Assembly: GCA_045837725.1 (NCBI GenBank)
Contig: JBEWZL010000276.1
Coordinates: 1-64,000, forward strand
Direction of reading: 5' to 3'
From: Vermamoeba vermiformis
Taxonomy: Eukaryota
Length of the DNA stretch: 64,000 nt
Below, one piece after another: positions 1 through 54,697 of this stretch (positions are counted from its first letter, which is position 1; the number at the start of each line of letters is the position of its first letter). The notes under the pieces were generated by a model. The model was given only the letters and a program-made list of their open reading frames with translations. It did not search any database and was not told the DNA's origin. Position numbers and translations under genes: made by a program.

Positions 1-16
1 ATTGAAACAGTTTGGT

Positions 17-2082
17 TTATTCGTTTAACATTCGATGAAATTTGACTGACACTAAATGCTCTTCACCCCCATTCAAGTCATTTGATATTCCGCACACTTT
101 AAAACTTTTTGCAACGATGTCGGCTGGGACACGATTCCACGCAGATACTATCCAGTTGACAACAAGTTGCTTGGTGGGGCTCTGAAACACTGTTTGGTTA
201 GCTCTCCAGCGATCATGCATAGCCCTGTAATGATGCTTGAATGACTTGTTAATTGACACGTCAAGAGGCTGGACAATTGGGGTGCAAGCAGGAGGTATCA
301 AAACAATGTGTGTGTTAGCAAATTGGCGTTGTTTTGAGGCTTGAAATTTCTTATGTCCTCCAAATTCATCCCAAACTAGCAAGTTCACATTAGTCCCAAC
401 ATGGTGATGCCAAACTTTATCAAACCACAGCCGTGTCAAAGAGTGATCGTTCCAAGCGTTTTCTTGAAAGGCAATGTGTGCCACTTTAGGGGATACTACT
501 ACACCTTTGACGCAGGCAGTAGTTTTACCTTTGAATATAATCATGGGTGGTAACTTGGTGCCGTCAGCCATAACAGCTAATATCACAGTGACGCGACTGC
601 GTGATGCCCCAGATGTTTTGACAACGACCGTCTTTGATCCTCGTTTTTGAACAACCTTTCGAGCAGGAACCTCATAGTAAATGGCTACTTCATCCATATT
701 TCCAATGAAGTTGACTGGAATGCAGTGGTTTTGACGATTGGTGTTGATTGATGTCCAGAATTTGTCCAGTTCCTCGGCGAGTGCCTCGCGTGTGTACAGT
801 TTTGAGGTTGACACAGTTGGAGTGCGTAACGAAAGGTTGTGCCTGCGAAAGAAGCCGTGCAACCATTTATCAGATGCCGCAAAATTAGGGTGGATCAACT
901 TTGCTTTGTCTTTGATGTTTTGCGGTGTCACTGATAGTTTGCGGTCACGACGGGCTAATATCCATGAACACAATTGAATCTCTTCAGCCTCTGTCAACAG
1001 TGGTTTGCGTCCACCACCATGTTGACGCAGCCTTCCAAATTGCAATGTTTTTTGTCGCCAAGAATACAAAGTTGATTTTGGAATTTTGAAAAGACGCGAC
1101 ACCTCAGCAACTCCAAGACGTTTAATTTGATCCAAAATGTAAATAAACTGGCGACGATTTCGCTTTAAAGAATTATACGAGTTAAGTCGCCGCTTAACGT
1201 TAAAGGGTTGGGAGGTAACTGGTCGCGGACACACATCAGGCTTTGAAGCTTGTTTTACTTGCAGACGATGTTTTAAGAAGTCAAATTTATCTAAATTATA
1301 GTAAGATATATGTATTATAAGTCTCTGCCCATCGTAAGTAAGCCAATGAATGAGCCACCAGGTGACCGGTAACAAATCCATTAACAGACCACAGATGAAC
1401 AAAGAGCATCAGTAAAGCATACCTGAGAATGGAACAACTGGAAAATCACAGGAATTCACTTTAGTGAGTGTCTGCTTGTGTTGTACTGGAGACTGTTGCA
1501 GTTGAGGAGGCTGATCTAGTGCCTGAATGTCAGGATCTAGTTCTGTTAGTAATTGATCAAATTCGATGGGATTTTTTTTGTTTATAGTCAATTAGACTGT
1601 GCGCGTTCCAAATATGCAAACAGAATTGAATTCTGTTGCATAGTAACCCGTCGAGACCCGCGACAAGACCCGCGAAAAATTTGGTTCCTTGCAATGCTAT
1701 TCAGCTCAATGAACACAGAATTTAAAGTGTCTTATATGTCGAAGTAGGTTATTTGAGGTGTAGAATTCGAATTTGATGTCAAAATAAGGTTCTGAGCTCA
1801 TGCGATCCCAGGCGTGGATTTACGATTTGGATTAAAATTTTGTACTGACTTGTACTCCACTCAAAAATTCTATCTATTGAATAGATATATATAACAATAT
1901 TTTACAATACCTCTTGTGATAGTTTTGGATGCTTTGGCTGCAGGTCGATTTTGCTGGCTAGATCTAACTTGTACCTCTGCTTGCTCATCTGCAAACCATT
2001 TCCTATGGCGACCCCTTCTTCTGTCACTCCTGCGCAATGACCCAGGCTTGAGTTGCTTATAATATCTCTCTACTGTGGTCAT
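17..2082 (-). CDS. pogo-superfamily (Passer/POGK-like) DD35D transposase; predicted exons 2082-1911, 1542-1423, 1290-17 (521 aa)
   Basis: N-terminal HTH (GVAEVSRLFKIPKSTLYSW), CENP-B-type HTH (FAASDKWLHGFFRRHNLSLR), catalytic NMDE / LVWDEFGGH / QPLD with 35 residues between D2 and D3, and C-terminal SFKVCGISNDLNGGEE. The upstream exons join in frame through GT-AG introns 1910-1543 and 1422-1291. Confidence 0.9.
1541..1856. repeat. 316-bp inverted repeat, left copy (inside intron 1 of the transposase gene)
   Basis: Its reverse complement matches 2394-2709 with 5 mismatches and no gaps by manual alignment. Confidence 0.97.
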
Positions 2083-2216
2083 ATTGGTTCGATTGGAATA
2101 AAATTAATAAAATTATTCACCAATGGCCTTATTTTGGAAATTTTTGAATTCAGTCTCTTTGCTACCAGTTTTATTTGCCAGAATAGCACCAAAGGGTTTT
2201 ATTTTAGATATTTATC
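2083..2216. promoter_or_regulatory. Putative bidirectional promoter between the two divergent ATGs
   Basis: 134-bp AT-rich gap between ATG 2082 (-) and ATG 2217 (+); inferred from position only. Confidence 0.55.
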
Positions 2217-4181
2217 ATGTATCAAGACCTCGAATTGACCTCATTACAATCTCTGCTTGAGCACTGGCAACATCCAGGGCCAGTAACAGTGATTCTCCAA
2301 GGAATCCAACGCAGCACTGGAAAAGACAATCAAAAGAAGATGTACAGGTATTATATATACTCTAGATACCCTTAGTATCTAATTTATAACTTCAGTACAA
2401 GTCAGTACAAAATTTTAATCCAAATCGTAAATCCACGCCTGGGATCGCATGAGCTTGGAACCTTATTTTGACATCAAATTCGAATTCTACACCTCAAATA
2501 ACCTACTTCGACATATAAGACACTTTAAATTCTGTGTTCATTGAGCTGAATAGCATTGCAAGGAACCAAATTTTTCGCGGGTCTTGTTGCGGGTCTCGAC
2601 GGGTTACTATGCAACAGAATTCAATTCTGTTTGCATATTTGGAACGCACACAGTCTAATTGACTATAAACAAAAAAAATCCCATCGAATTTGGTCAATTA
2701 CTAACAGAATTGGATTTTACAGAATTCTGGTCACAGATGGTGAACTGCAGACTAACTTTGTTCACAACTCGACTCTAGCTGCCTGGGTTAGTCAAAATCT
2801 GAGTTCTGGTCGCCTACTGAAGCTTCCTGCAAGCAGTTGGGCATTTGTAAATGTTGACGAGTAAGTGCGAACTTATTTATTGCGGCGCCGCTAACATTGA
2901 TTAGGACAAAGACACTGTGCATTACAGACACAAGCAATATTCAATATTCAGAAAAAACACCTCATGTGAAGCCCCTATACCACATTGGCTTGGGTCCTAA
3001 TGTTAGCGAGTTGCCGGCGCCACCGCCAATCAAGTCAAAAAGCGACCAAATTGTCGACTCCACTGGCATATCAGATCAAGCACCAGACAACAACATAGGA
3101 CCCGATTCAAATGCAGAATTAATCACAAGTGATGTTCCAGCAGTAGACAACCAAAGCGAGAGTGCCGATGATGAAATTGATGACTTTGTAAGTTTTCAAC
3201 TAATTGCCGAACGTTTAATAACTCATTCTGTAGTATCAAACCATGAAGCAAGACAATGATAAACTCTACTCTTTCTATTACAAGAAGCATCCGATCCAGT
3301 ATCCAAACAATTCGCGCGCTTACTCTGCATTGCTGGTTCGAAAGTCGAAAAAGCGAGTGCGGGTTGGATATGATTATGACACAAAAGATTATGGGGTTGT
3401 CAGCGTTATTGCAGTTCTCAAAGTGCGAAATGGAAAGGCTTCTTTATTAGTTTTGGATGCCGAGGACGAAGTCCAGCGTGTGTCACCATCTTCGGTCAAA
3501 AATGAAGTTGGACAATCCAGTGCAACAGTAGTCAAGTCATCAGAGAAAAGAGTACATCAGTATTTGGAGCAATCTGAAGATACGGAGCCAATTTATTCAC
3601 CACAAACACCTCGCCAAAGAACTGTTGTCACGCGCACTTCCACTTCTGCGATCAACTCGAAGCAAACTCCCAATACTAACTCCATGCAACTTGTGATATC
3701 TCGTATTGAAGCACTTGAAAAGGAAGCCAGAGAGACCAAAGAGAGCATTCAGAAGCTGTCGAAACTACTGGAGGCACAATCTGCTAATTTGGCTAAAAAT
3801 TCTAACTCTGCTCCTCAATATCCTATGTTTGTTCCCTACCCTCAACTTAAAGGATATTTTGAACCAGCCCAGCAGTCTCCCAATAATGAAAATCGAAAAC
3901 GAACACACCGCTCTCGCTCTCGCTCCCGCTCACCATCTCCCAAGTCTTCGCGTCACAAACGGCACCCTTGGCAACTGAAATACTACAGTGACTCCAGATC
4001 ATCTTCATCCCGCTCTAGATCTGCCTCAAACTCACCTGAGAGGAGTTTTGAAAAGCACTACAAGAGGCGAAGATCCAGATCTCCAGATCGCCGACACCGA
4101 TTGACTCACCAATCCCCACGCTCACCCACTAGGTATGATTCATATGCACACAAGAGTTATAAGAAACAAAGATTTTATTAA
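2217..4181 (+). CDS. Unknown protein of about 499 aa: RPA70N/TPP1-like OB fold at the N terminus, acidic linker, beta-rich domain, coiled coil, Arg/Ser-rich tail; predicted exons 2217-2347, 2723(or 2708)-2860, 2905-3187, 3234-4181
   Basis: Four exons splice in frame with canonical GT-AG and join ORFs 2556..2864, 2897..3259 and 3243..4181. The spliced motif KMYRILVTDG resembles RYRLLMSDG of RPA70N. The tail contains RSRSRSRSPSP. Confidence 0.75.
2394..2709. repeat. 316-bp inverted repeat, right copy (inside intron 1 of the OB/RS gene)
   Basis: See the left copy. It ends in ...TACTAACAGAA, the branch point/acceptor region. Confidence 0.97.
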
Positions 4182-4605
4182 ATAATAAACACCATTCCAA
4201 ATTTCTTCAACTTGTTTTGCTTTACGACTTATTTGGCAGTTTACAGTACACCAATTTTAATGCTGCGATCGAGAAATGTCGTTCCTGAAACCACATCGGT
4301 TTGACAATTTTGTGTTAATTCAATTTAATTACGCATAAATTTTTTGAATGCAACGGTTGCGTTAGTATCTGCTTCAGATTTTGAAAGAAATCTTGTTTTG
4401 CTTTTAACTTACATCCACTTCCCTTCGCTGGCAAACGCGGTAAAACAATTGACAATCACAATAACGTGCTAAAATAGTATGATTAAACATCTCAATTATT
4501 TCTGTTATCTGTTCGCTGATCTGTTTCAGTTGTGAAAAATAAAAGTTGAAGAGTTTGAGACCGAACATTCCAAACACTGGATCAACACAGCTAATATCTT
4601 TAATT

Positions 4606-6253
4606 ATGGCTACAGAGTATACGGAACGAGTCAAGTAAGAGAATGGTGCTTTAGCAAGAAAAATATCGGATCTGATCTTATTGTTTTATTCATAAACAAC
4701 TTAAAAATTGACAACTAACAGGAATTTATAATTATTTAATATATTGTTGATTTTAATACAATTTTAAACGGTATAATCGCTCAATAACTAATTTAGAAAG
4801 TCAGATCCATTTTTTGAAAATTTTTGTAAGCTAACGTAGTGGTTGTAGGCGTCGCTTGAACAATATTCTCGAATCGACTGACTTAAATATCGGCAAAAAA
4901 TTTGCCGGCAAAGTCCGCGACGTTTATGAATTGCCGAATGAGATCGTGATCGTCACTACAGATCGACTCAGCGCCTTTGACAGAAAATTAACAAGCATTC
5001 CTTTTAAAGGGTACATATAAATACAATATTACTACCATAAAGATGCTAATTATTACATTAGACAAGTGTTAAACCAAACAGCAGCGTTTTGGTTCGAACA
5101 AACCAAGCACATCTGTCCAAACCACATTATTGCCATCCCCGATCCTAATGTTATCGTGTGCAAGAAATGCACCGTATTTCCCGTAGAGGTAAAATGCATT
5201 CCTTTAATCTCGAACCATCTACATCCGATCTGCAAATTCAATTCCTGCCACAAGAGCTTTTATGACCTGGTTATACTTACTAATTGTATCAAATAGGTTG
5301 TTGTTCGAGGTTATGCTACTGGAAGCACTGCTACCTCATTGTGGACTCATTACAGGTAAGATCCGTCTTTTCATTTAACTTTGAAACTGCTCATTTCTTC
5401 GCCACATCCGAGATACTTATAGTTTTATATATTATAGTAAAGGAGAACGTAAATATTGCGGTCACGTCTTGCCTGATGGCCTGAAAAAAGATCAAAAATT
5501 ACCACAAGCTATTGTGACTCCTACAAGTACGTTCCACGAGTCCTAATTGTTGTCTTATAAGACTATTTTATTTATTATAAGTATTATAATATTAATTCAA
5601 TGCTATTTTAGCTAAGAGTGACGAGCACGACGAATTGATTTCAGGCGAAGAAATTATTGCTAAAGGATTAATGAGCGAGGTAATAATAGCACTAAGGCAT
5701 TATAACAGGTAATATTGGGGCTAATGTTCATTATAATAGGCTGATTGGAAAGTTGTGCACGACATGGCATTGAAATTGTTTGCTTTTGGTCAAGATCTAG
5801 CCGCCAAGAATGGAATGATCCTCGTTGATACTAAATACGAGTTTGGCAAGGACGTACAAGGCAACATTTTATTAATTGATGAGAGTAAGCAGATCCACAA
5901 CACTTCCTAAAAAGGAAATATTTTGTACTGACAAATACTTCTCAGTTCATACACCTGATAGCTCGCGTTATTGGATTGCATCGAGTTACGAAGAAAGATT
6001 CAATGCAGGACAAGCACCTGAAAGCGTTGATAAGGATATTGTAAGAAATTGGTACCGACAGCACTGCGATCCGTACAAGGATGAAGTATTGCCGAAAGCA
6101 CCCGAAGACTTAATTGTGTTGCTCGCTGAACGATATATTAACCTTTATGAGCGTATTACTGGCCAGAAATTTGAGTTCCCTTCCGAGCAAGACGAAAATA
6201 TTCCTGTCGGATCCCGCGTGGAAACCAACTTGAAAAAATACTACAACAAATAA
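4606..6253 (+). CDS. ADE1: SAICAR synthetase (phosphoribosylaminoimidazole-succinocarboxamide synthase), multi-exon
   Basis: Motifs [45 protein letters not shown] and DKDIVRNWY across exons; first exon MATEYTERV at 4606. Confidence 0.95.
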
Positions 6254-13866: not shown

Positions 13867-16748
13867 ATGATTAATGCAGCGAATATCAAATCAGACGATC
13901 AAAAAACCGTAGAAGAATTGTTAGCCGAGCTTGAGCAAGAAAGGAAGAAGAATACTAAAGCTCAAGCAAGAACGGCAGCAAGAAAAATTATCAACTGTAG
14001 TTTTAGATCACATGGTTCAAATGGTTATTCTTCTAGATAAACAAGGAAAATGTATGGAGGCAAATAGAATAGCTATCAATACAGCTGGATCAACTCGAGA
14101 CAGAATTCAGGGGATGCATTTTTGGTAATTTAATCGTTAATTTAGTTGGTTTTCAGATGGACCTTGCTGCCACTACGATAAATAACGGCAAAGATACTCT
14201 AATATAATAATTACTAATATATATACCATATAGGAACGCTTTATCGTTCAAGCCATTTCCTGAAACAATTGAAAAAGTCAGAAACGCAGTCGAGACAGTT
14301 AAGCAAGAAAAGCGCTCTGTTCGAGAGGAATTTGCTATGATGAAACGCAAATATAATCTACAAATACAAGCAGATTTTACTTTTCATCCGCTGTTAGGTA
14401 AGCGCCAGTTTTCTAAAATTGAGAAAAATTGATCGGATGGCGTTCCGTAGCGAACTCGGAACCTCCGGCATTCTGGTACTTGATATTATGCCAATATCTT
14501 AATGTCATTTTGCCTATTACTAAGAGTTTTCGAACGATAAACTTCTGCTTTTGCTTTTTAAAACTTTGCTCGCTTTTTAGTTCGCCGGATCGTTAACAGG
14601 ACACGAGCAAGGCTTAAAACGGCCCTCCAAAGCAAATTTAACGTACCCTCTTATCATATTTTCCTTATTTTTCGTCATACAAATCTTTTTGTTGTGATAC
14701 AAATATTTTGGTGGCTAAATCCGGTTTTAATTAACAGATGCTGATGGCAACGTCGAGTACATACTGGCAGAAGGTCGTGATATTACTGATAAAAAGCATG
14801 CCGAGCTTGAAGTCGAGAAGAAAAATCAAGAACTGAAAGAGCTTTATGAGCGGCTACGAGAGATAGATCTGACCAAATCTCATTTTATTGCAACGGTCAG
14901 TCACGAGCTAAGAACACCCTTAGCATTAATATTAGGCACTACTCAATGGCTGGAACACGAAGAAGTCATCACATCCGATAAGCGACAACAAGCTTTTACT
15001 ACTATCAACTCTAACGCCTATATTTTATTAAAAGTAAGTACCGTATAACGTTACAATATCACCACTAAAGCTTAGAAGTCGGCGGTTGTGAACTGGATCG
15101 CCGGGTCGCACGAGTGTCACTGACACTTTGACACTTTATTAACGAGTTTTGTATTGTTAGAGAGTCAATGATTTGCTCGAGATTTCAAAGTTAGAATCAG
15201 GAAAGATAGAGCTGCATACGGTGGATATAGATCTGGCAATGTTTTTGGATCAGATCTGCTCTCACTTTGAAGTACTCGCCAAAGAGCGAAACATCGACTT
15301 TAGGAAGCTCTTTAATAGAAATATAGTCGCACATCTCGATGTCGAAAAAATCGAACGAATTGTCTTCAATTTACTGTCCAACGCGTTCAAGTTCACCCCC
15401 GAAAAAGGCGTCATCGCGATCAGTTCTAAATTAGGAAATGACGGAACAAAGTTCACAATTGTCGTCGAGGACTCGGGCCCTGGTATTCCTGAACAAATGT
15501 GGCCTAAAATCTTCCAAAGATTCTTAACTTTGGGTGATAATGAAGGCGGTGCAGGCTTAGGTACGAACAATTTTTCGAACGAAAATTCCTGCAATGCCTA
15601 ACTTTCCTTTTTTGTTTAGGCCTTGCTATTGTTAAAGAATTGACCGAAGCACACGGTGGAGGTGCTCGAATTAACAAATCTGTTCACGGTGGAGTTTTAA
15701 TGGAGATCACTTTACCCGTGACTTTGCTCGGCCACTCGCCAGCTGTAAAAAGAGTGGTGAACTCCTCGAGTGGAACATCGCTAGGAGCCCCCGTTGCCAA
15801 CACTGCCGCGCAAATGATGGCCGAATTACGTAGTCACTTGCAGCGTGACAATGCGCAACAACAGTACGGTCAAAAACCTGCCACGTCGAAAGTAGTACCA
15901 CATTTGCCTCTTCAACATCAATTCAACAACTCAGCCCAACACACCAACGCGCGACAAAACAATGGCCCTGGTGAAGATTCGCCGCTGATTCTCGTGGTCG
16001 AGGACAATGTGGCCATGAACTCGTTCTTGAAGGAGACTCTGGGCCGTGAATACCGAGTACTGACTGCTGTTAATGGCCAAGTAAGTCAATCATGCGTATA
16101 TAATTTGGCGAAGAAATTGTTGTTGCAATTTCATTGAGCTGAGATCCAATTTGAATTTACGTGCGTTTTATTAACCAAATCTTCCCTTTTTAGGAAGGCG
16201 TCAAACTCGCATTGAAATTCATTCCTGACTGTATTGTTAGCGACGTTATGATGCCCGTCATGTCCGGTGAAGAAATGGTGCATATTATCCGAGATCACAG
16301 AGAACTCGAGACAGTGCCTATTCTTTTATTGACCGCCAAAGCCGATGATGAGCTTAAAGTCCGATTATTGCGTAGTGGCGTGCAAGATTTTCTGCAAAAG
16401 CCGTTCAAATTGGACGATTTATTGGCACGTGTCAGAAATTTAGTGACCATGCGACAAACGTGGGACTCGTTGCAACGTGCCTTGCTCGCGCAAAGCAAAA
16501 ATTTGCGAGAATTAGTCGATGATATTACTACACTATTTGGACAAGACAAATTATACACACTGCCGCACACGATCACGCAACAATTTGGAGATCTCATTTT
16601 AGACGACCCAGAAGGCCAACAAGAAAACAATAATAATAGCAATAATGTCAGCCTTGATGCCACTAATGACTTTGACGATGAATCGTCCTCCGAAGATGAA
16701 GACGAGGAAAGTTCGGATGCCGAATCCAACGAGAGCGCTGAAAATTAA
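13867..16748 (+). CDS. Hybrid sensor histidine kinase (PAS-HisKA-HATPase-receiver), multi-exon; apparent frameshift near 13950
   Basis: PAS/PAC (LAEGRDITDKK), H-box VSHELRTPL, N-box NLLSNAFKFTP, DSGPGIP, GAGLGL, and receiver VVEDN / SDVMMP / LLTAK / QKPF. Confidence 0.93.
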
Positions 16749-20727: not shown

Positions 20728-23700
20728 TTACAGATCTGAACTTTTATCTTCTGCGCTGTTGTCTTCAAACCGTTCGTAAAATAACATGTAGGCTTCCTTG
20801 CGCAATACTTCTTCAAATCGGAGCTCGTGGAACTGAGTGTCGGAAAAGTAATGCCATCCCGCGTTGACTGAAAAAAAGGTTAGATGCGCATCCAAACAAA
20901 ATGCACAAAACGGCAGCACGAAAAGGGGTGACGAGCCAAAAAAGCAAAAAGTAAAGAGCACAACACCTCCGATTCCCAGGTAGTCTCCTACCCCAGTACT
21001 AAGAAGGCCTGAACAAGCTTAACTTCGCTGATCGGACGGGAAGCGGTGCATTCTTGTTAGTGTGGTCGTGCCCGAGACGCTTTGCAACATCGTGTTCGGG
21101 TCACTACTTGCCATACCACCAACAAATCGAACGCACCGAGCTTGTCCGTCAGCTTTGTCGTTGCAAAAAACTAGTTTGTGCCAACCAGCCAAAAAATTAC
21201 AGACAAAAAGCAAAAAAGAAAGAGGCCCCGCCCGGAATTGAACCGGGATCCTTGGAGTCAGAATCCAATATAATAGCCATTATACTACGGAGCCGTTGTT
21301 GAACGCCGCCTTAGAGGTTTTGGCGTCCCCTCAGTTCCGAGGGGGAAAAACTTCGAAATTTTTCTTTCTGGTGAGCGGATGTACTTACTTGCGTCCTCCA
21401 ATGTCTCGTTGACTCTTCTATTTCTAACATAGGCTACGTAATGACCACTGTTCAAGCCACCACTATGTGAGACGATGCCATAGAGCTTGTACTTGTATCT
21501 TTTTTCTTGTTCGTCGGAGGTCTCGCTCAGGTACGGAGTCAGATCCAAGATTGCTGGGAATTCTACGAAGGTGCTAATCTTTTGAAAGCCGTTATGAGTT
21601 TGCATAAATCGCTTGATATGCAAGGTTAAAATCTCCGGTTGCTTCTTAAACAAGAACTGTTTAGTTGCAGTCCTTCGTAGTAGTGGGATCTTCGGTTTAG
21701 GAGCTGGCTTGACTTCTTTCTGGAGCTTTTCTTCTTTCTTTTCTTCTTCTTTCTTTTCCTCCTCATCGGTATCCATCTTATTCTCGCTGTCGGTTGTCAA
21801 AGCATTGTACGGATTTGACTTCACATCATCTGAGCCCTCAACGGCCTCTTCTTCTTTCATATGCGGCTTTGCTCGGCGTTATTTTCTTCCTCTTTGTTTT
21901 CGTTAGTTTGTTCGAGCTTCTTTTTGATTTCTTCGATTTCTGGCGGATCTCCGTGAGCCAAAATAAGTGGTGTTAAGTCCTTGTTGTGCTTCATCTAACA
22001 ACGCGATCGGGTTAGATATCAATACGTTACTACACTAATGTAAAGACTTACCCAATGGAGCTTTGTGCAATTGTAACACGAGAACGCGTTGTCACGGTCT
22101 AACAACTCTGGAGCAGTGAACGCGTAAATGGTTGATTGAATTGAACAGCCACTAGGCACTTCTTTGACGCGTCGTCCATCGACTTGACTCATCATTGGCG
22201 GCACGGTGTCTTCAGGCAAATCGTCCCAATCATTCTTAGGGGCCACTGCTTCAACTTTGGTGTTATTATTCTTGCCCTTTTCTTTAGTCTCTTTGGCACT
22301 AGCCTCGTTCTTTTCATTCTTCTCTTCGGGCTGTTCTTTTGCCGGCGCTACTTCCTCGGTCTTAGTCTCGCCATCCTTGGTCTGGCCCGATGCTGCAGTT
22401 GACTCTTCTTTCTTTTCCTCGCTTGTCGCAGCCTCGGCATTGGTGGAAGTCGTATCAGGAGTTGGCTGTTGTTCGCTCGTAGCTTCGTTTTTGGGAGCAT
22501 CGGAAGTTTCAGATCTTCGGTGTTTCTTCCATTTTAACGTCGGTAGTACTGCTGCTAGCTTCAGATTGGGTCGAGTTCTCTTCAGCAGGCTTGTTCTCGC
22601 CATCCACTTTCGGTGCCTCATCCGTAGTCGCACTGCCTTCGGAGTTTGGATTGTTTTGGGCCTCTTCTTGCTTTTTCTTCGCTTCTTCCTCTTTCTTCTT
22701 CTGTTCCTCGGCTTGTTTGTCTTTCAACTGCTTTTCACGAAGTAATCTTTGCCGTTGTTTCTTGTTCAATTTAACCTCTTCTTGAACCGCTGCTGCTTTC
22801 TTCGAAGAAGGTGATTCTAACGACAAAGACAAGTCCAAAATAGGCTCTATGACACGAGACTTGTGTCCACAATGGTGGCACGTGATCGTGCTCTACAATA
22901 GCTTTGTTATTAAACTATAAACAATAGATTGGCTAATTATGACATACCTCTAATTGACCTTCAAACAGCTGTTCAATTAATGATGGCGGAGGCTTTGCCT
23001 TGACTTTCGCAAGGACTTTCTTCAGTTCTAATTGCTGTTCTTTAGTTAACTTGTCCAAGCTCGGGAAATTAGCCATTTCTCGTTTTGCAGCTTCAACTTG
23101 GAATACAATTCTTTCTTCGCTGCTAATACCGTCTAACAAGTACCGCAAAAGTTCTTGCGCGTCTTGTTGTCTCATAGTTGAAAACCTCGGTGCCCTAATG
23201 ACATTAAGGTTAAGATAATTGATTCGGTATTATCTATTACACGTACTTTTTCTTGATTTGAAGGAAGAGCGATTGCGGCGAAAAGACGTTGCCTTTGCCG
23301 TGCCACATATTGACCATAAAATCTTTGAATGACTTCGTTAACGGTCCTTCTAACGGTGCCGCAGGGACGTTGTTGTTGTTATTTACACTGGGCTTCGGTT
23401 CATTCTCTGGTCTTCTTTTCTTCGCTAGCCTTCACTTCTTCAGTCTTATTTTGTTCACTCGCGGTGTCTTTTTGTTCCGGGGCTACGCTTGGATTATCAT
23501 TCGAAGTTGGCGCACTCGTCTCATTAGTGTTATTATTGCTCGCAGACTCGCTACTGCTAGTGTTAGCAGTTTCTGACTCGCTCGATGATTTCTCTTCCTT
23601 CTTCGTGTTGTCGTTATTTTGGGCTGGCTTCTCGATCGTTTTCATCTCTTCTCTAATAGGCCCCATGATTTGAAACAACTTTCTCGCGGAGAGGAATTGT

Positions 23701-50516: not shown

Positions 50517-53500
50517 TTAGCTTTTTACATTTTTCTCGTCTGTTGATGAAGTACCACTGCCGGCATTATTGTTATTGCTACCACTATTGCTTCCACTTGA
50601 GTCAAGCACTTTCTTATAAGTGCCAGGCATGGCACTCGGAGGCATGCTAGTACTACCTCGTTCCACGAGATTGCGTAACTGGAACAGCTCGTTCTTCAGC
50701 AGCTGATTCTCGTGGTACAAAGTCTCGTACTTGCTCTGGTAATAACTACCGTCATTACCCTTCTTCAGCGCCTCAATTTCTTTTTCTTTGGCATCAAGAC
50801 GCGTTTGAAGTTCAACGGCACGTTGTGGATCGCCGGATGCGTAGCTAGTGTTGTTCTTAGGATAACTGCCGGAAGAGCTGAACGTCGCAGCTGATTTGAA
50901 GCTTGATGAATGTTTCTGGCGGTCCATTGTCAACTTGCTCACGAACAAAGTCAACACGCTGATGCCTGTATAAAAAGAAGTCAGATCTTGACGCGCACGC
51001 GTCAAAATATTACTTTTGAGTTACGTACAAGTGCCCAGCATGATGCCAGCACTACGCAAGGCATACAGAAGTTCTCTATCCGTCGCCTTAGTGAATTGGA
51101 GCACGCTGATAAGAATCGCAAAGAATGCAGCGTTGTACATCTGCAACCGCAAGTTAATCTTTAGCTCTAAAGTCTGTATGCACAACGTACTGAAAAAGCG
51201 ATGATTTTGGACTCGTTGTACAACGAATATCGCAACTTTCTAATCTTCCAAGCGATAATCAAGCCGCCAACGCCCAATACACCCTATATATTATTATTAA
51301 TCCCATTAGTTTGAGTTGATTGTATATGCTGTGCACGTACGTTATAAGCTATCAAAGCACCAGCAATGCCAACATTATTGCTCGTTGGACATTCTTCGTA
51401 ATCGTGAACGGGTCGGTACGGATCCACAACTACGCGAATGGGAGTCATATCAACGACACCAACTTGAACGGCACAAATAACCTACGGACAGGTCAGCGTA
51501 CGGCTAAAGTGATATTTGATTGGCTTACAATGTTGCCGACAAGAAGACCAAGAATGATCAACACGAGTTGCGTGTCAGTGATCTTGAAAATCTTTAGCGA
51601 CGTGTTGCTGCTCAGTTTGTAAATTCTCCATGACTTAGCGAACAAAGCACTGTGCAGTTGTTAGTAACGATTGTTGACAAACGGAGACTCGGATCTTACC
51701 CAAACATAATAGTCCAGCCAAATGATAACAGCCATGACTGAAGATAGCACGATGGTGCACTAACAGCAGACAAGCCCCAAGTAATGACGCTCGAGTAAAT
51801 GAACATGGATCCGATCAAGAACACAATCAACAAGTTCGGTGAGCTTGCTCTAAAAGATTTAAACCGTTAGTGAGATGCAACCTCGACGTTATATATTAAT
51901 ATATTTACTTTATGATAGGCGACTCGCGTGTGACAGCAACGTAGATCAGTAAACTTAGCGAGAACAAAATGCCCAAAACAGCAAGCGAGAAGAACACCCA
52001 CTCGGCAGTATAAGCTAAAGAGTTAATCAGTACTTATGCATATTTAAAATAGTGGTCGAACTTGCAATTAAAGTTATCCAAGAACTGACGCTCGTTCCAT
52101 CCAGGGAAAGGATCGATTACATCGAACGATTCAATTTGGGCCAATGGAGGTCCAACGACTTTGTGTGTGCCATTGACGATTTGTACGAACAAGCACGAGA
52201 GTTGATTGCTGTGGTCGACACCGTAGAAGAACTGACCCATAAACGTGTCACGGTTGAATCGTTCCACCGCATCCCGAACGTCTTGTTGTGAAAAGGAGGG
52301 TGCATTCTATAAATCGTACACAATTAGTATAAATTAACTAAGATTATCTGTGACCTGAGATTGTCAAATTTTATCAATAAAACAGGTAAATGTCCAAATT
52401 TGGAAATTTAGAAAACAGTTTGAATTTTTCGAAGCACTGACGCACTTGATCGTGTATAGTTATTACTCAGGCTATACTTACTTCAATTGATAATTGTAAC
52501 AGCATACCAGCCATAGAGCCGAAGGCAGAGTAATCATCGGGAGTCACACCGTACTTGGCTACGTACTCTTTGACGTATTGTTGAGTACCGCTAAAGACAG
52601 GATCGTTCAAGAAATTAGCAGTCGCTTCAAACTGCGGACAAAAGGGGTCAGATCGAGTCCACAACTTCGATGCAGTATAATTTTCTTACGCGAGAGCAGC
52701 CGGTGATGAACTCGTTGACTTCTTTGGAAGAGTTATACAAATCGTTAAATGGCAAGAAAGTGACAAAGTTAGGAGCATATTCTTGACGCTGAAACTCTTC
52801 CATAATCAGTTGCCCAGTATCACCAAAAGCACATCCGATTACGGTGTGGATGTCTTGTTGTTTAAGATCCTAATCGATAGTTAGTTTACGTTCTATCACA
52901 TCAGTGAATTAACAAACTGTCGCACATAAGCACAAATCACAAGAAGATTGAATTTAATCGCGATCCGAATCTACTTACTGCGACTGCATTGCGAATTTGT
53001 TCTTCAGCATAGTCGCTAATGCTTCCAAGACTAGAATTGATCGAATAGGATGCTACGATCTCAAGTCCATTGGCACTGGCCTGTGAGATCACGTGGTTAA
53101 TAAAAAATATTTTTGTGAACGGTTACCAACAATCCATCGCTGAGCGATTTTTCCAATCTCTACCAACTTACCAAACCTAACTATAAATAAATTTAAGTAT
53201 AATTTAACTACATGTCGGATCTGTCCGTAAAAGTGTTGTGCCGTTTATGATTTTCCGGTGACATAATGTCAAAATTGTAAATTTAAATCCCCAAACACGC
53301 GTTTAGATAAGAATCTTCGATTATACTTACTTCGCGACTAGTCATTCCTTCACAAGCTTCTTTAGGGCTCGTAGCTTCTGAGATCAGCAATCCCAAACGC
53401 GGCGCATGGCGAAGGCGATAATAAGGAAAAGCAACCGTTGGGCAGCGAGTAGAGGCCGTGACGACGCTGAATGAGTATTGTTTGTTCAAGTAGAAGCTCG

Positions 53501-53903
53501 TTGAAGACACTGCAGTGCCGATCAATAGGCGTTGATAACTTTCAGTCAGATCTGAGACCGGATTGCTCGTTTCAGAACCAACAGGACCAAGCAGATAATC
53601 CACTGTACTGTCGTTCAAAAGTTTTCTATAATTTTCCAAGGTGACAGCGGCGCTTCCATCGTCCTCTAAAACTTTCAGTTCAAATTTATAAGTTTGTCCT
53701 CTGATCTCTTTGCTCGTCGCTGCAATCTTGTCCAGCCAGAAATTTAAGCCGTTTAAGATTTTAGCACCTTGTAGAGCTCGACTGCTTCCTGTGGGAGTTG
53801 TAGTCAACGAGATACCAAGTGTTATAGTGCCGCTGGAGACGTCGCAAAGTGTAGATCCGATCGCAACCAACAACAAGCACGACACAATGAGTAAAGTGCG
53901 CAT
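50517..53903 (-). CDS. Class C (GABA-B-like/Grl-type) GPCR with a periplasmic-binding-protein-type ectodomain, multi-exon
   Basis: Signal peptide, VLEDDGS...VDYLLGPVGS, 7TM motifs PIIKASSPNLL, LFAKSWRIYKL and FNESKIIAFS, and a C-terminal coiled coil. Confidence 0.87.
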
Positions 53904-54697
53904 TGTTGATCGTATTCGTGTGTGGTGCAATGTTCAATTGACGAATTAGATCTGACGATTGGCATCTTCACTTGTTCATTGTATCACCACGTGATCATGT
54001 GTCGTTCATGACGTATACCATTATTTCCATTTTTAGACGTCCAAAAGAATACAATCTGGCTCAGAGATAATCGTACATGTCGTTTGCACGAGAAATGACC
54101 GTTATTTAAGCTTCGCATCATTGGCACGAAAGTCGATACATAACTGTTTTGGTTAGCGAAGGATCAAGGCTTTGCGCAAGAAATTATCTTCACTAAATCC
54201 AACGGCAAGAATTCTTGATTCGCAGTGTATCTTTGCCTGTCAAGCTCGCAAGTATGTAAACTAAACAACAAACGAAGTTAGATTGTTTCAAGATCATAAA
54301 TCCGTAAAAAAAATTATTTAAATTTTAATGCAATGGAACACAAAAGGTTTTTACGGCCTTACATCTTATACACTACAAAAAATTAACTAATATTTTCCTG
54401 ATATCCCTTGCAGTTTCCTTCATAGCCAGATCATGTTTGATTTTTCGCAAGCGCCGTTTGCGGCATTATATCGGCTGCTATAATTCGGCCTAATACATGA
54501 TTATCTGGCTATAGTTGCACTTCGCCTAAGCAAGCAAAAAAAGGCGGGCTCGAGAAATTTCTCTGCTTCGTTCGCCTAACAAAAAATTTTGCTGTTCCTA
54601 ATTATCTGCGTTCGGCTCAGGAGCACAACACAAATACAAGAATAAAGATGGAGTCTTATTATCAACAAAGAAATATAGCGAAACACCGCGAAGCAAG

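What the first reader, a model, noticed from the sequence alone, without database searches (positions are those of the whole stretch)
17..4181. Two-gene pogo module: divergent transposase and OB/RS-protein genes share one near-identical first intron, forming an inverted repeat around their promoter
Seen: 1541-1856 and 2394-2709 are 316-bp inverted repeats with 5 mismatches. The 537-bp spacer holds two back-to-back first exons (ATG 2082 minus, ATG 2217 plus), each ending in a GTATT donor. Each repeat fills most of the first intron and ends at the TACTAAC branch/acceptor region, and both splices are in frame. Both pre-mRNAs therefore carry the same sense 316-nt sequence. Known: pogo elements normally encode only a transposase and have short terminal repeats, not long internal ones. 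Inference: this is a two-component element or domesticated module in which the shared intron co-regulates both genes, for example through splicing control by the RS-rich partner or a structured intronic RNA.
Basis: partly seen in the sequence, partly recalled or inferred. Interest (0 to 1): 0.9.

Follow-up and report, generated by a model that had tools for sequence, protein, structure and literature searches.

The report
Shared intron repeat flanking divergent promoter
Two back-to-back genes, a pogo-type transposase gene and a lineage-specific gene with an arginine/serine-rich tail, each carry the same 316-base sequence in what looks like their first intron; the repeat is real, but it looks more like a recently copied intron insert than a proven regulatory device.

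Summary
A 316-nt inverted repeat with 5 mismatches (335 nt at 96% when extended) lies at 1541-1856 and 2394-2709. It has only two copies in the 64-kb window. Contigs of a run that differs from the window by 1-2% bridge 3 of its 4 borders, so it is not an assembly artefact. The minus-strand gene is a pogo/Tc5-type transposase with an intact DDD triad. It is low-copy and under purifying selection. The plus-strand gene is lineage-restricted, with one 33% relative of the same layout, and is also constrained. Neither gene has a start codon without an exon in the spacer, so both repeat copies are very probably intronic, in sense orientation. Each supplies a TACTAAC branch site.

Several claims are not supported. 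Two RNA runs gave no reads, so splicing is unverified. The OB fold could not be tested. The intron RNA is not unusually structured. No termini, no second copy of the module and no partner gene near 41 distant relatives were found. My best reading (about 0.5) is a recently copied intron insert whose palindromic layout is a by-product. A functional two-gene module remains possible (about 0.12).

The parts
1541..1856 (-). Left copy of the 316-nt repeat core (extended arm 1535-1869). Read on the minus strand it is in sense with gene T.
2394..2709 (+). Right copy of the 316-nt repeat core (extended arm 2381-2715), in sense with gene G.
1857..2393 (.). 537-nt spacer holding the presumed bidirectional promoter, both candidate first exons and the unshared 5' parts of both first introns.
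1911..2082 (-). An alternative exon 1 is 1911-1988 (ATG 1988, 26 codons, phase 0) with the same GTATTG donor.
   Evidence: In X1, 1947 G>A gives a stop in the first frame and is synonymous in the second.
1523..1910 (-). T intron 1, 368 nt if the acceptor is AG 1544-1543 (reader) and 388 nt if it is AG 1524-1523. TACTAAC lies at 1545-1551.
   Evidence: not verified by RNA
1423..1542 (-). T exon 2 (Q/P-rich). It starts at 1542, 1536 or 1522 depending on the acceptor used.
   Evidence: 2 of 3 X1 differences fall at third codon positions. X1 also holds a variant of 1451-1520 (loose ends).
1291..1422 (-). T intron 2 (132 nt, GTATGC...TTTAG).
   Evidence: Relatives P0003 and P0004 become alignable exactly at the exon 3 start, DKFDFL.
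17..1290 (-). T exon 3 with its stop: helix-turn-helix domains plus the DDE_1 catalytic domain of a pogo/Tc5-type transposase.
2217..2347 (+). G exon 1 candidate (ATG 2217, 43 codons plus 2 nt, GTATTA donor).
   Evidence: not verified by RNA
2348..2722 (+). G intron 1 (375 nt). TACTAAC lies at 2699-2705. The AG at 2706-2707 is also in frame and would add 5 residues.
2723..2860 (+). G exon 2.
2905..3187 (+). G exon 3 (acidic, Ser/Pro-rich linker), after a 44-nt intron at 2861-2904.
   Evidence: 5 of 6 X1 differences fall at third codon positions
3234..4181 (+). G exon 4 with its stop, after a 46-nt intron at 3188-3233: a conserved all-beta region, a predicted helix, and a C-terminal 100 residues with 19 RS/SR dipeptides.

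Best explanation
Two real, separately constrained genes diverge from a short shared promoter region. T is a low-copy pogo/Tc5-type transposase gene that looks catalytically intact. G is a lineage-specific gene for a protein with an RS-rich tail. Each gene began with an ordinary short first intron. Removing the repeat leaves 59 nt in G and 72 nt in T, close to the 44-132-nt introns elsewhere in these genes. One 316-nt sequence was then copied recently into both introns, so that it is in sense in both genes. It may have moved from one intron to the other, 0.85 kb away, by templated repair, local duplication or a local hop of a low-copy intron-resident element. The insert carries a consensus TACTAAC branch site at its 3' end, 18 nt (G) and 23 nt (T) upstream of acceptors that lie just outside it. 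Only sense-oriented copies would therefore be tolerated, and in divergent genes sense orientation automatically produces an inverted repeat around the promoter. On this reading the palindrome is a by-product, and the insert's only demonstrable role is to be spliced out using its own branch site. Shown here: the repeat, its borders, the gene families, constraint on both genes, low copy number. Inferred: use of the first exons, the insertion history, and the lack of a regulatory role.
For: The core has sharp borders and 5 differences in 316 nt, all transitions, four of them at CpG-type sites. That is about the divergence between the window and run X1, so the copy is recent. The first introns are 368-388 and 375 nt, while the other introns of T and G are 132, 44 and 46 nt. 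The residual introns keep branch-like motifs (CTGAC in T, CTAAT in G, read). The 46-54 nt behind each donor are unrelated, so what was copied is not a whole intron. There are no terminal inverted repeats or target duplications at the core borders. The intron RNA folds no better than 9 and 14 of 100 shuffles, and Rfam finds nothing at gathering score or at E<0.01. There are only two copies in 64 kb. X1 k-mer depth over the arms is 154-1045, against 343-402 over the gene bodies and 196-351 over the SAICAR-synthase side, which fits two or three copies and not a high-copy family. Both genes are real. T differences run 4/2/11 by codon position in exons 2-3, with 11 synonymous and 6 not. G differences run 2/2/12, with 12 synonymous and 4 not. 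T exons 2-3 and G exons 2-3 have no usable ATG, so start exons in the spacer are needed. 41 distant T relatives (108,967 bp) show no G and no arm.
Against: No RNA supports any junction. Two copies sitting in the first introns of adjacent genes, both ending at the branch/acceptor region, is a lot of coincidence for a neutral event. The parts of 1473-3015 covered by listed X1 contigs (831 nt) show 1 difference, against 17 in 1-1472 and 25 in 2782-4178. This could mean constraint on the promoter/first-exon/arm-end cassette rather than neutrality, or it could be coalescent patchiness. A low-depth X6 contig carries 65 nt of the arm's 5' end (2392-2457) between unrelated flanks. That may point to a dispersed element, or to a diverged T-like locus that keeps this piece. 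I could not see any relative's locus, so I cannot say whether the arrangement is young or conserved.
Confidence: 0.5

Rival explanations
1. T and G form one co-evolved two-gene pogo-derived module, mobile or domesticated, and the shared intron sequence is a functional element that couples their expression, for example through splicing control by the RS-tailed partner or through transposase binding sites.
For: The two genes are divergent neighbours 134-228 bp apart, with similar k-mer depth in X1 (402 and 343) and zero reads in both RNA runs. Both are under purifying selection. T keeps all three catalytic aspartates in 8 of 8 aligned relatives. G has a 33% relative with the same layout, including the RS tail, so it is a real conserved gene of unknown role. 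The central cassette is about 10 times less diverged between the window and X1 than the gene bodies. My three full-text searches and the passages I read of PMC7386202 and PMC7325037 turned up no pogo element with a non-transposase partner gene, so it would be new.
Against: No termini or target duplication could be seen: the left end lies outside the window, and nothing was found right of G. There is only one T locus in the window. 41 distant T loci lack G, though most of those contigs are short. G has no RRM or any Pfam domain. The intron RNA is not specially structured. Co-occurrence of T and G in any other genome could not be checked.
Confidence: 0.12
2. The 316-mer is a member of an intron-resident mobile family (an introner-like element or other non-autonomous element) that landed independently in both introns.
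For: Near-identical sequence makes up most of two introns of unrelated genes. It is in sense in both and carries its own branch site and an AG. X6 holds a 65-nt piece that starts at the same 5' border in another context. X1 has excess depth over the arms and a variant 3' end.
Against: There are two copies in 64 kb and about two or three by depth, whereas introner-like elements are described in hundreds of copies with stable predicted structures (PMC3609843, abstract only). The donors and the first 46-54 nt are not shared. No TIR or TSD is present, and fold z-scores are only -1.3 and -1.6. The X6 piece ends exactly at the two adjacent arm mismatches (2456/2457), and its left flank resembles T's intron 5' part, so it may be a diverged T-like locus or an assembly-graph artefact. 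The 23-mer from the arm's 5' end has 0 exact hits in the metagenome, prokaryote-genome and viral contig collections.
Confidence: 0.2
3. The arms are long terminal repeats of pogo-type elements lying head to head, and the spacer 'first exons' are spurious.
For: Very long TIRs (392-856 bp) exist in some pogo elements (PMC7386202, section 8, passages read). The arm's inner end reads (C/G)AGTAC..., which from my recall resembles Tc1/pogo termini.
Against: T would have no start codon: there is no in-frame ATG in exon 2 or in the first ~197 codons of exon 3, and all three sense frames of the arm hold 4-5 stops. No TA duplication is seen at the inner ends. The G side has no transposase and no matching second arm in the 61 kb to the right. 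The only look-alike, 5917-5939, is the branch-site region of an intron of the SAICAR synthase gene.
Confidence: 0.08
4. The repeat is an assembly fold-back or chimera artefact.
For: Inverted repeats around a short spacer are a known artefact shape.
Against: Independently built contigs of a run that differs from the window by 1-2% bridge three of the four arm borders with at least 31 nt on each side. X6 contigs match inner parts with 0 other letters (2 gaps in the arm piece). The arms differ at 5 places, which a fold-back would not produce.
Confidence: 0.02

Closest known systems
pogo/Tc5-type (DDE_1) transposases and their domesticated derivatives (CENP-B, Jerky/TIGD, POGK; fission-yeast Abp1/Cbh)
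   Same: T has the HTH_Tnp_Tc5 and DDE_1 domains and a DDD triad with 35 residues between the last two aspartates. It is low-copy, intron-bearing and under purifying selection, with single-contig relatives at 87, 64, 62 and 48% identity. That resembles a host gene more than a swarm of transposon copies. The named hits are Paraglomus occultum proteins and vertebrate POGK at 33-36%.
   Different: The catalytic triad is fully retained. No terminal repeats could be assessed. None of the passages or abstracts I read describes a divergent partner gene or a repeat shared between first introns (PMC7386202 and PMC7325037 passages; PMC4231638 abstract only). The supplementary tables of PMC7386202, which list element structures, were not available.
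Introner-like elements of fungi and Introners of algae and other eukaryotes
   Same: Near-identical sequence forms most of the introns of unrelated genes, in sense, with its own branch and acceptor signals. These introns are longer than the neighbouring ordinary ones.
   Different: Only 2-3 copies are seen, not hundreds. The donor and the 5' 46-54 nt are not part of the repeat. There is no stable predicted structure and no TIR or TSD. The family description comes from the abstracts of PMC3609843 and PMC9860276 only.
Two-gene DNA transposons (PIF/Harbinger with a Myb-like partner; MuDR mudrA/mudrB with promoters in long TIRs)
   Same: A transposase gene is paired with a second gene of another kind, and long inverted repeats are associated with the 5' ends of both genes. 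This comparison is recalled; MudrA/MudrB of Mutyl is mentioned in PMC5014426, passage read.
   Different: The transposase superfamily differs. Here the repeats are internal and intronic around a central promoter, not terminal. No mobility evidence exists.
SR and SR-like proteins
   Same: The C-terminal 100 residues of G hold 19 RS/SR dipeptides, with 22 R and 24 S. The relative P0125 has 13 in its last 84 residues.
   Different: G has no RRM or any other Pfam domain. RS-like tails occur in many nuclear proteins, so a splicing role is only a guess.

Membership tests
pogo/Tc5-type transposase (Pfam DDE_1) | DDE_1 catalytic domain | tested here: met
   PF03184, E 1.4e-27, 96.9 bits against a cutoff of 22, covering profile positions 3-177 of 177
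pogo/Tc5-type transposase (Pfam DDE_1) | CENP-B/Tc5-type helix-turn-helix DNA-binding domain | tested here: met
   PF03221, E 9.5e-12, 45.2 bits against a cutoff of 22.2
pogo/Tc5-type transposase (Pfam DDE_1) | Acidic catalytic triad present | tested here: met
   D199 (NMDE), D307 (WDEF) and D343 (QPLD) are invariant in 8 of 8 aligned sequences. Assigning these three as the triad is from recall of the family motifs.
pogo transposon (mobile element) | Terminal inverted repeats and a TA-type target duplication around the gene(s) | tested here: inconclusive
   Only 16 nt lie beyond the T stop inside the window. No inverted partner was found right of G.
pogo transposon (mobile element) | Several copies in the genome | tested here: inconclusive
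   There is one T locus in 64 kb. X1 depth of T (402) is in the range of the neighbours (196-351). X1 loose ends at 1450 and 1521 hint at a second allele or copy. No whole genome is held.
Introner / introner-like element | Near-identical introns in unrelated genes, in sense orientation | tested here: met
   311 of 316 positions are identical in the putative first introns of T and G. The intron status itself is inferred.
Introner / introner-like element | Many copies | tested here: not met
   Two copies in the window and about 2-3 by depth in X1. The genome-wide count is not available.
Introner / introner-like element | The element spans the whole intron, including the donor | tested here: not met
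   The first 46 (G) and 54 (T) intron bases are unrelated apart from GTATT.
Introner / introner-like element | Unusually stable predicted secondary structure | tested here: not met
   z -1.62 and -1.26; 9 and 14 of 100 shuffles fold at least as well
MITE | Terminal inverted repeats, target duplication, high copy number | tested here: not met
   The two ends of the core are not inverted copies of each other, and the flanks show no direct repeat. Copy number is low.
OB fold (RPA70N-like) for the G N-terminus | Recognisable OB domain across exons 1-3 | not tested
   Single exons gave no Pfam family at E<=10 and only chance-level PDB sequence hits (E 0.27 and 1.3). The spliced protein could not be handed to the search or folding tools. 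The resemblance to RPA70N is my recollection only.
SR protein | RRM plus RS domain | tested here: not met
   The RS-rich tail is present, but no RRM or other Pfam domain is found.

The most novel reading that the evidence does not exclude
T and G are a conserved, pogo-derived two-gene unit. It consists of a catalytically intact transposase and a lineage-specific partner with an RS tail, both driven from one bidirectional promoter. The 316-nt sequence kept nearly identical in both first introns would be a functional cis element, such as a shared branch-site/splicing-control module or a transposase binding platform, that couples their expression. The near-invariance of the promoter/first-exon/arm-end cassette between two strains whose gene bodies differ by 1-2% would then reflect constraint.
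Probability: 0.12. Interest if true: 0.75.

Novelty: new variant of a known kind. Interest (0 to 1): 0.4.

Why it matters
If the repeat is only a recently copied intron insert, the locus is a neat but minor example of two things: how introns grow, and how sense-only tolerance in divergent genes creates a palindrome around a promoter. If the pairing and the shared intron are conserved in relatives, it would be the first pogo-type transposase with a dedicated non-transposase partner and a shared intronic control element. That would bear on how transposases are domesticated and regulated. Either way the locus is a compact test case: one RNA-seq data set from a strain that holds it, plus one whole-genome search for the 316-mer, would settle most of the question.

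Tried and rejected
- Own genome: none is held.
- Phage collection search with the arm: no match and irrelevant.
- Earlier findings of this scan: nothing by place, sequence or words.
- RNA evidence: no RNA holder was listed by the index. Two raw-read RNA runs with the same species label as X1 gave 7 and 16 laid reads, all right of 4509. So there is no test of splicing, and silence cannot be told from absence of the locus in that strain.
- Rfam: only 5S rRNA and a tRNA elsewhere in the window. On 1400-2900 the best hit is Afu_264 at 24.4 bits against a gathering score of 40, E 0.042.
- G protein, sequence searches: no Pfam family for any exon. The word-index search found only the 99% copy. The full HMMER scan found the 99% copy plus one 32% relative. 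The Atlas gave no usable hit. PDB sequence searches gave nothing.
- G protein, structure: the AlphaFold model of the conserved exon-4 region had mean pLDDT 40.7, so no fold search was made.
- Complex prediction, T exon 3 with the G exon-4 domain: no answer.
- T exon 1 peptide search: no candidates. Exact look-ups of five ATG-started short ORFs of the spacer and arms: none is in the collection.
- Arm 23-mer: 0 exact hits in the metagenome, prokaryote-genome and viral contigs.
- T profile searches: 41 distant loci in metagenomes, at 22-53% identity in the best segment, with no G or arm. None in genome contigs or viral contigs.
- A candidate TIR partner at 5917-5939 (I2) was rejected. It is the branch-site stretch of a SAICAR synthase intron.
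- A look-alike at 4244-4261 was rejected as chance: score 24, within the shuffled maxima of 23-29.
- Promoter inversion between the arms as an exon-swapping switch was rejected.
- Helitron and SINE readings of the 316-mer were rejected on inspection of its ends.
- The sigma-70 promoter scan is not meaningful for a eukaryote.
Full report
OBSERVATION

The inverted repeat is real. The repeat finder gives arms 1535-1869 and 2381-2715: 335 nt, 96% complementary, 511 nt apart. Aligning the two strands in transcript sense shows a sharply bounded 316-nt core, 1541-1856 and 2394-2709, with 5 mismatches. All five are transitions, four of them at CpG-type sites. The 12 nt after the core still resemble each other (CTAGATCC against TTGGATTT, four transitions). 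The sequence 5' of the core is unrelated.

A 27-mer of the arm occurs twice in the window and in none of 100 shuffles. blastn and a Smith-Waterman scan find no third copy in 64 kb.

The repeat is not an assembly artefact. Logan contigs of run X1 differ from the window by 1-2%. They bridge the left outer, left inner and right outer arm borders (records 1-3). X6 contigs match inner pieces with 0 other letters, with 2 gaps in the arm piece. No listed record bridges the right inner border.

THE TWO GENES

T (minus strand) matches DDE_1 (E 1.4e-27) and HTH_Tnp_Tc5 (E 9.5e-12). The three aspartates (NMDE, WDEF, QPLD) are invariant in 8 of 8 aligned relatives. Relatives at 99, 87, 64, 62, 48, 39 and 42% identity each sit on one or two contigs. 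They become alignable exactly at DKFDFL, the predicted start of exon 3, which supports the position of intron 2.

G (plus strand) has no Pfam domain. Its 315-residue last exon has just two hits among 1.84 billion representatives: a 99% copy, and one 32-33% relative with the same layout and an RS-rich tail. The tail holds 19 RS/SR dipeptides in 100 residues.

I placed the listed differences between X1 and the window on the gene models:
- G has 16 differences at codon positions 2/2/12, of which 12 are synonymous.
- Exon 3 of G alone has 5 of 6 at third positions.
- T exons 2-3 have 17 differences at positions 4/2/11, of which 11 are synonymous.

Both genes are therefore coding and constrained. 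X1 k-mer depth is 402 over T and 343 over G, against 196-351 over the adjoining SAICAR synthase side. The pair is low-copy. Only one T locus exists in the window.

ARE THE ARMS INTRONIC?

No RNA evidence could be obtained. Two raw-read RNA runs with the same species label as X1 laid 7 and 16 reads, all right of 4509, on the SAICAR synthase gene.

The indirect case is reasonable:
- T exons 2 and 3 have no in-frame ATG before about codon 198 of exon 3.
- G exons 2 and 3 have none, yet exon 3 shows coding-type polymorphism.
- The arm has 4-5 stops in every sense frame.

The details are less secure. The introns I could read at this locus have 10-15 nt between branch A and AG.

An AG at +23 requires a phase-0 first exon, which exists: ATG 1988, 26 codons, the same donor, giving 483 residues in frame.

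For G, the AG at +3 is also in frame and would add 5 residues.

WHAT THE REPEAT IS

- It is not a structured RNA by the tests available: fold z-scores are -1.6 and -1.3 and Rfam finds nothing.
- It has no terminal inverted repeats and no target duplication.
- It does not include the donors.
- Removing it leaves introns of 59 nt (G) and 72 nt (T, to the +23 AG), within the 44-132-nt range of the other introns of these two genes. Both residual introns keep branch-like motifs.
- It ends with a perfect TACTAAC placed 18 and 23 nt before acceptors that lie outside it.

The simplest reading is that one sequence was recently copied into two ordinary short introns 0.85 kb apart. Its divergence of 1.6% is about the same as the divergence between the window and X1. 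Only sense copies, which bring their own branch site, are tolerated. The inverted repeat is then the geometric consequence of divergent transcription.

I cannot tell whether the copying was templated repair, local duplication or a hop of a low-copy intron-resident element. One X6 contig carries 65 nt of the arm's 5' end in another context. However, it stops exactly at the two adjacent arm mismatches, and its flank resembles T's intron. It is therefore not clean evidence of dispersal.

The parts of 1473-3015 covered by listed X1 contigs (831 nt) show 1 difference. By contrast, 1-1472 shows 17 and 2782-4178 shows 25. This may be constraint on the promoter, first exons and arm ends. It may also be homogenisation, or ordinary patchiness of coalescence times.

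T keeps its catalytic residues. G is a conserved gene of unknown function. In what I searched and read I found no description of a pogo element with a non-transposase partner: the searches, passages of PMC7386202 and PMC7325037, and abstracts of the others.

Against the idea:
- No element termini are visible.
- 41 distant T loci (108,967 bp, mostly short contigs) carry neither G nor the arm.
- G has no RRM.
- Co-occurrence of T and G in any relative could not be examined.

COMPARISON WITH KNOWN KINDS

T is a member of the pogo/Tc5 transposase family by domains and triad. Whether it is mobile or domesticated is open. Its single-contig relatives, introns and purifying selection lean towards a host-like gene.

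The 316-mer fails three of the four features I took for introner-like elements from the abstract of PMC3609843 and from recall: copy number, whole-intron extent and stable structure. It also fails the MITE criteria.

A head-to-head terminal-repeat reading still fails here, because it leaves T without a start codon and G's side without a transposase or a second arm.

VERDICT

I put about 0.5 on a recently copied intron insert whose palindromic layout is a by-product, 0.2 on an intron-resident mobile family, 0.12 on a functional two-gene module, 0.08 on terminal-repeat remnants and 0.02 on artefact. Interest is moderate (0.4).

Noticed in passing
window 1473-3015: Between the window and run X1, the listed contigs show 1 difference in 831 covered bases here, against 17 in 1-1472 and 25 in 2782-4178. 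The promoter, first exons and arm ends are therefore about ten times less diverged than the coding bodies.
   Followed up: partly
window 1451-1520: X1 holds, besides a colinear contig, contigs that match up to 1450 and from 1521 onward but carry other sequence in between (loose ends of 123 and 255 nt). This suggests a second allele or copy of T with a different Q/P-rich exon 2.
   Followed up: no
window 4111-4253: An X1 contig matches only 4111-4248 (the end of the G coding region plus its 3' flank) between unrelated sequence, and an X6 contig matches only 4221-4253. Depth rises to 533 in this bin. A short repeated piece or a structural break point lies just after G.
   Followed up: no
window 4850-6253 (+): A multi-intron SAICAR synthase gene (Pfam SAICAR_synt, E 1.2e-08, on its last exon). 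It is the only part of 1-5000 with RNA reads in the two RNA runs.
   Followed up: partly
window 20955-21294 (-): A 5S rRNA gene (104.7 bits) lies 150 nt from a tRNA-Gln(CTG) gene.
   Followed up: no
window 15544-16134 (+) and 53286-53933 (-): ORF pieces with HATPase_c (histidine-kinase type, E 1e-4) and Peripla_BP_6/ANF_receptor (E 6e-11) matches. Eight other long ORFs in the window have no Pfam family, so much of the gene content is lineage-specific.
   Followed up: no
window 1602, 1662, 1793-1794 / 2456-2457, 2588, 2648, and 1947: Four of the five differences between the arms, and the X1 change at 1947, are CpG to TpG/CpA changes. This would fit cytosine methylation of the region or ordinary CpG hypermutability.
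   Followed up: no
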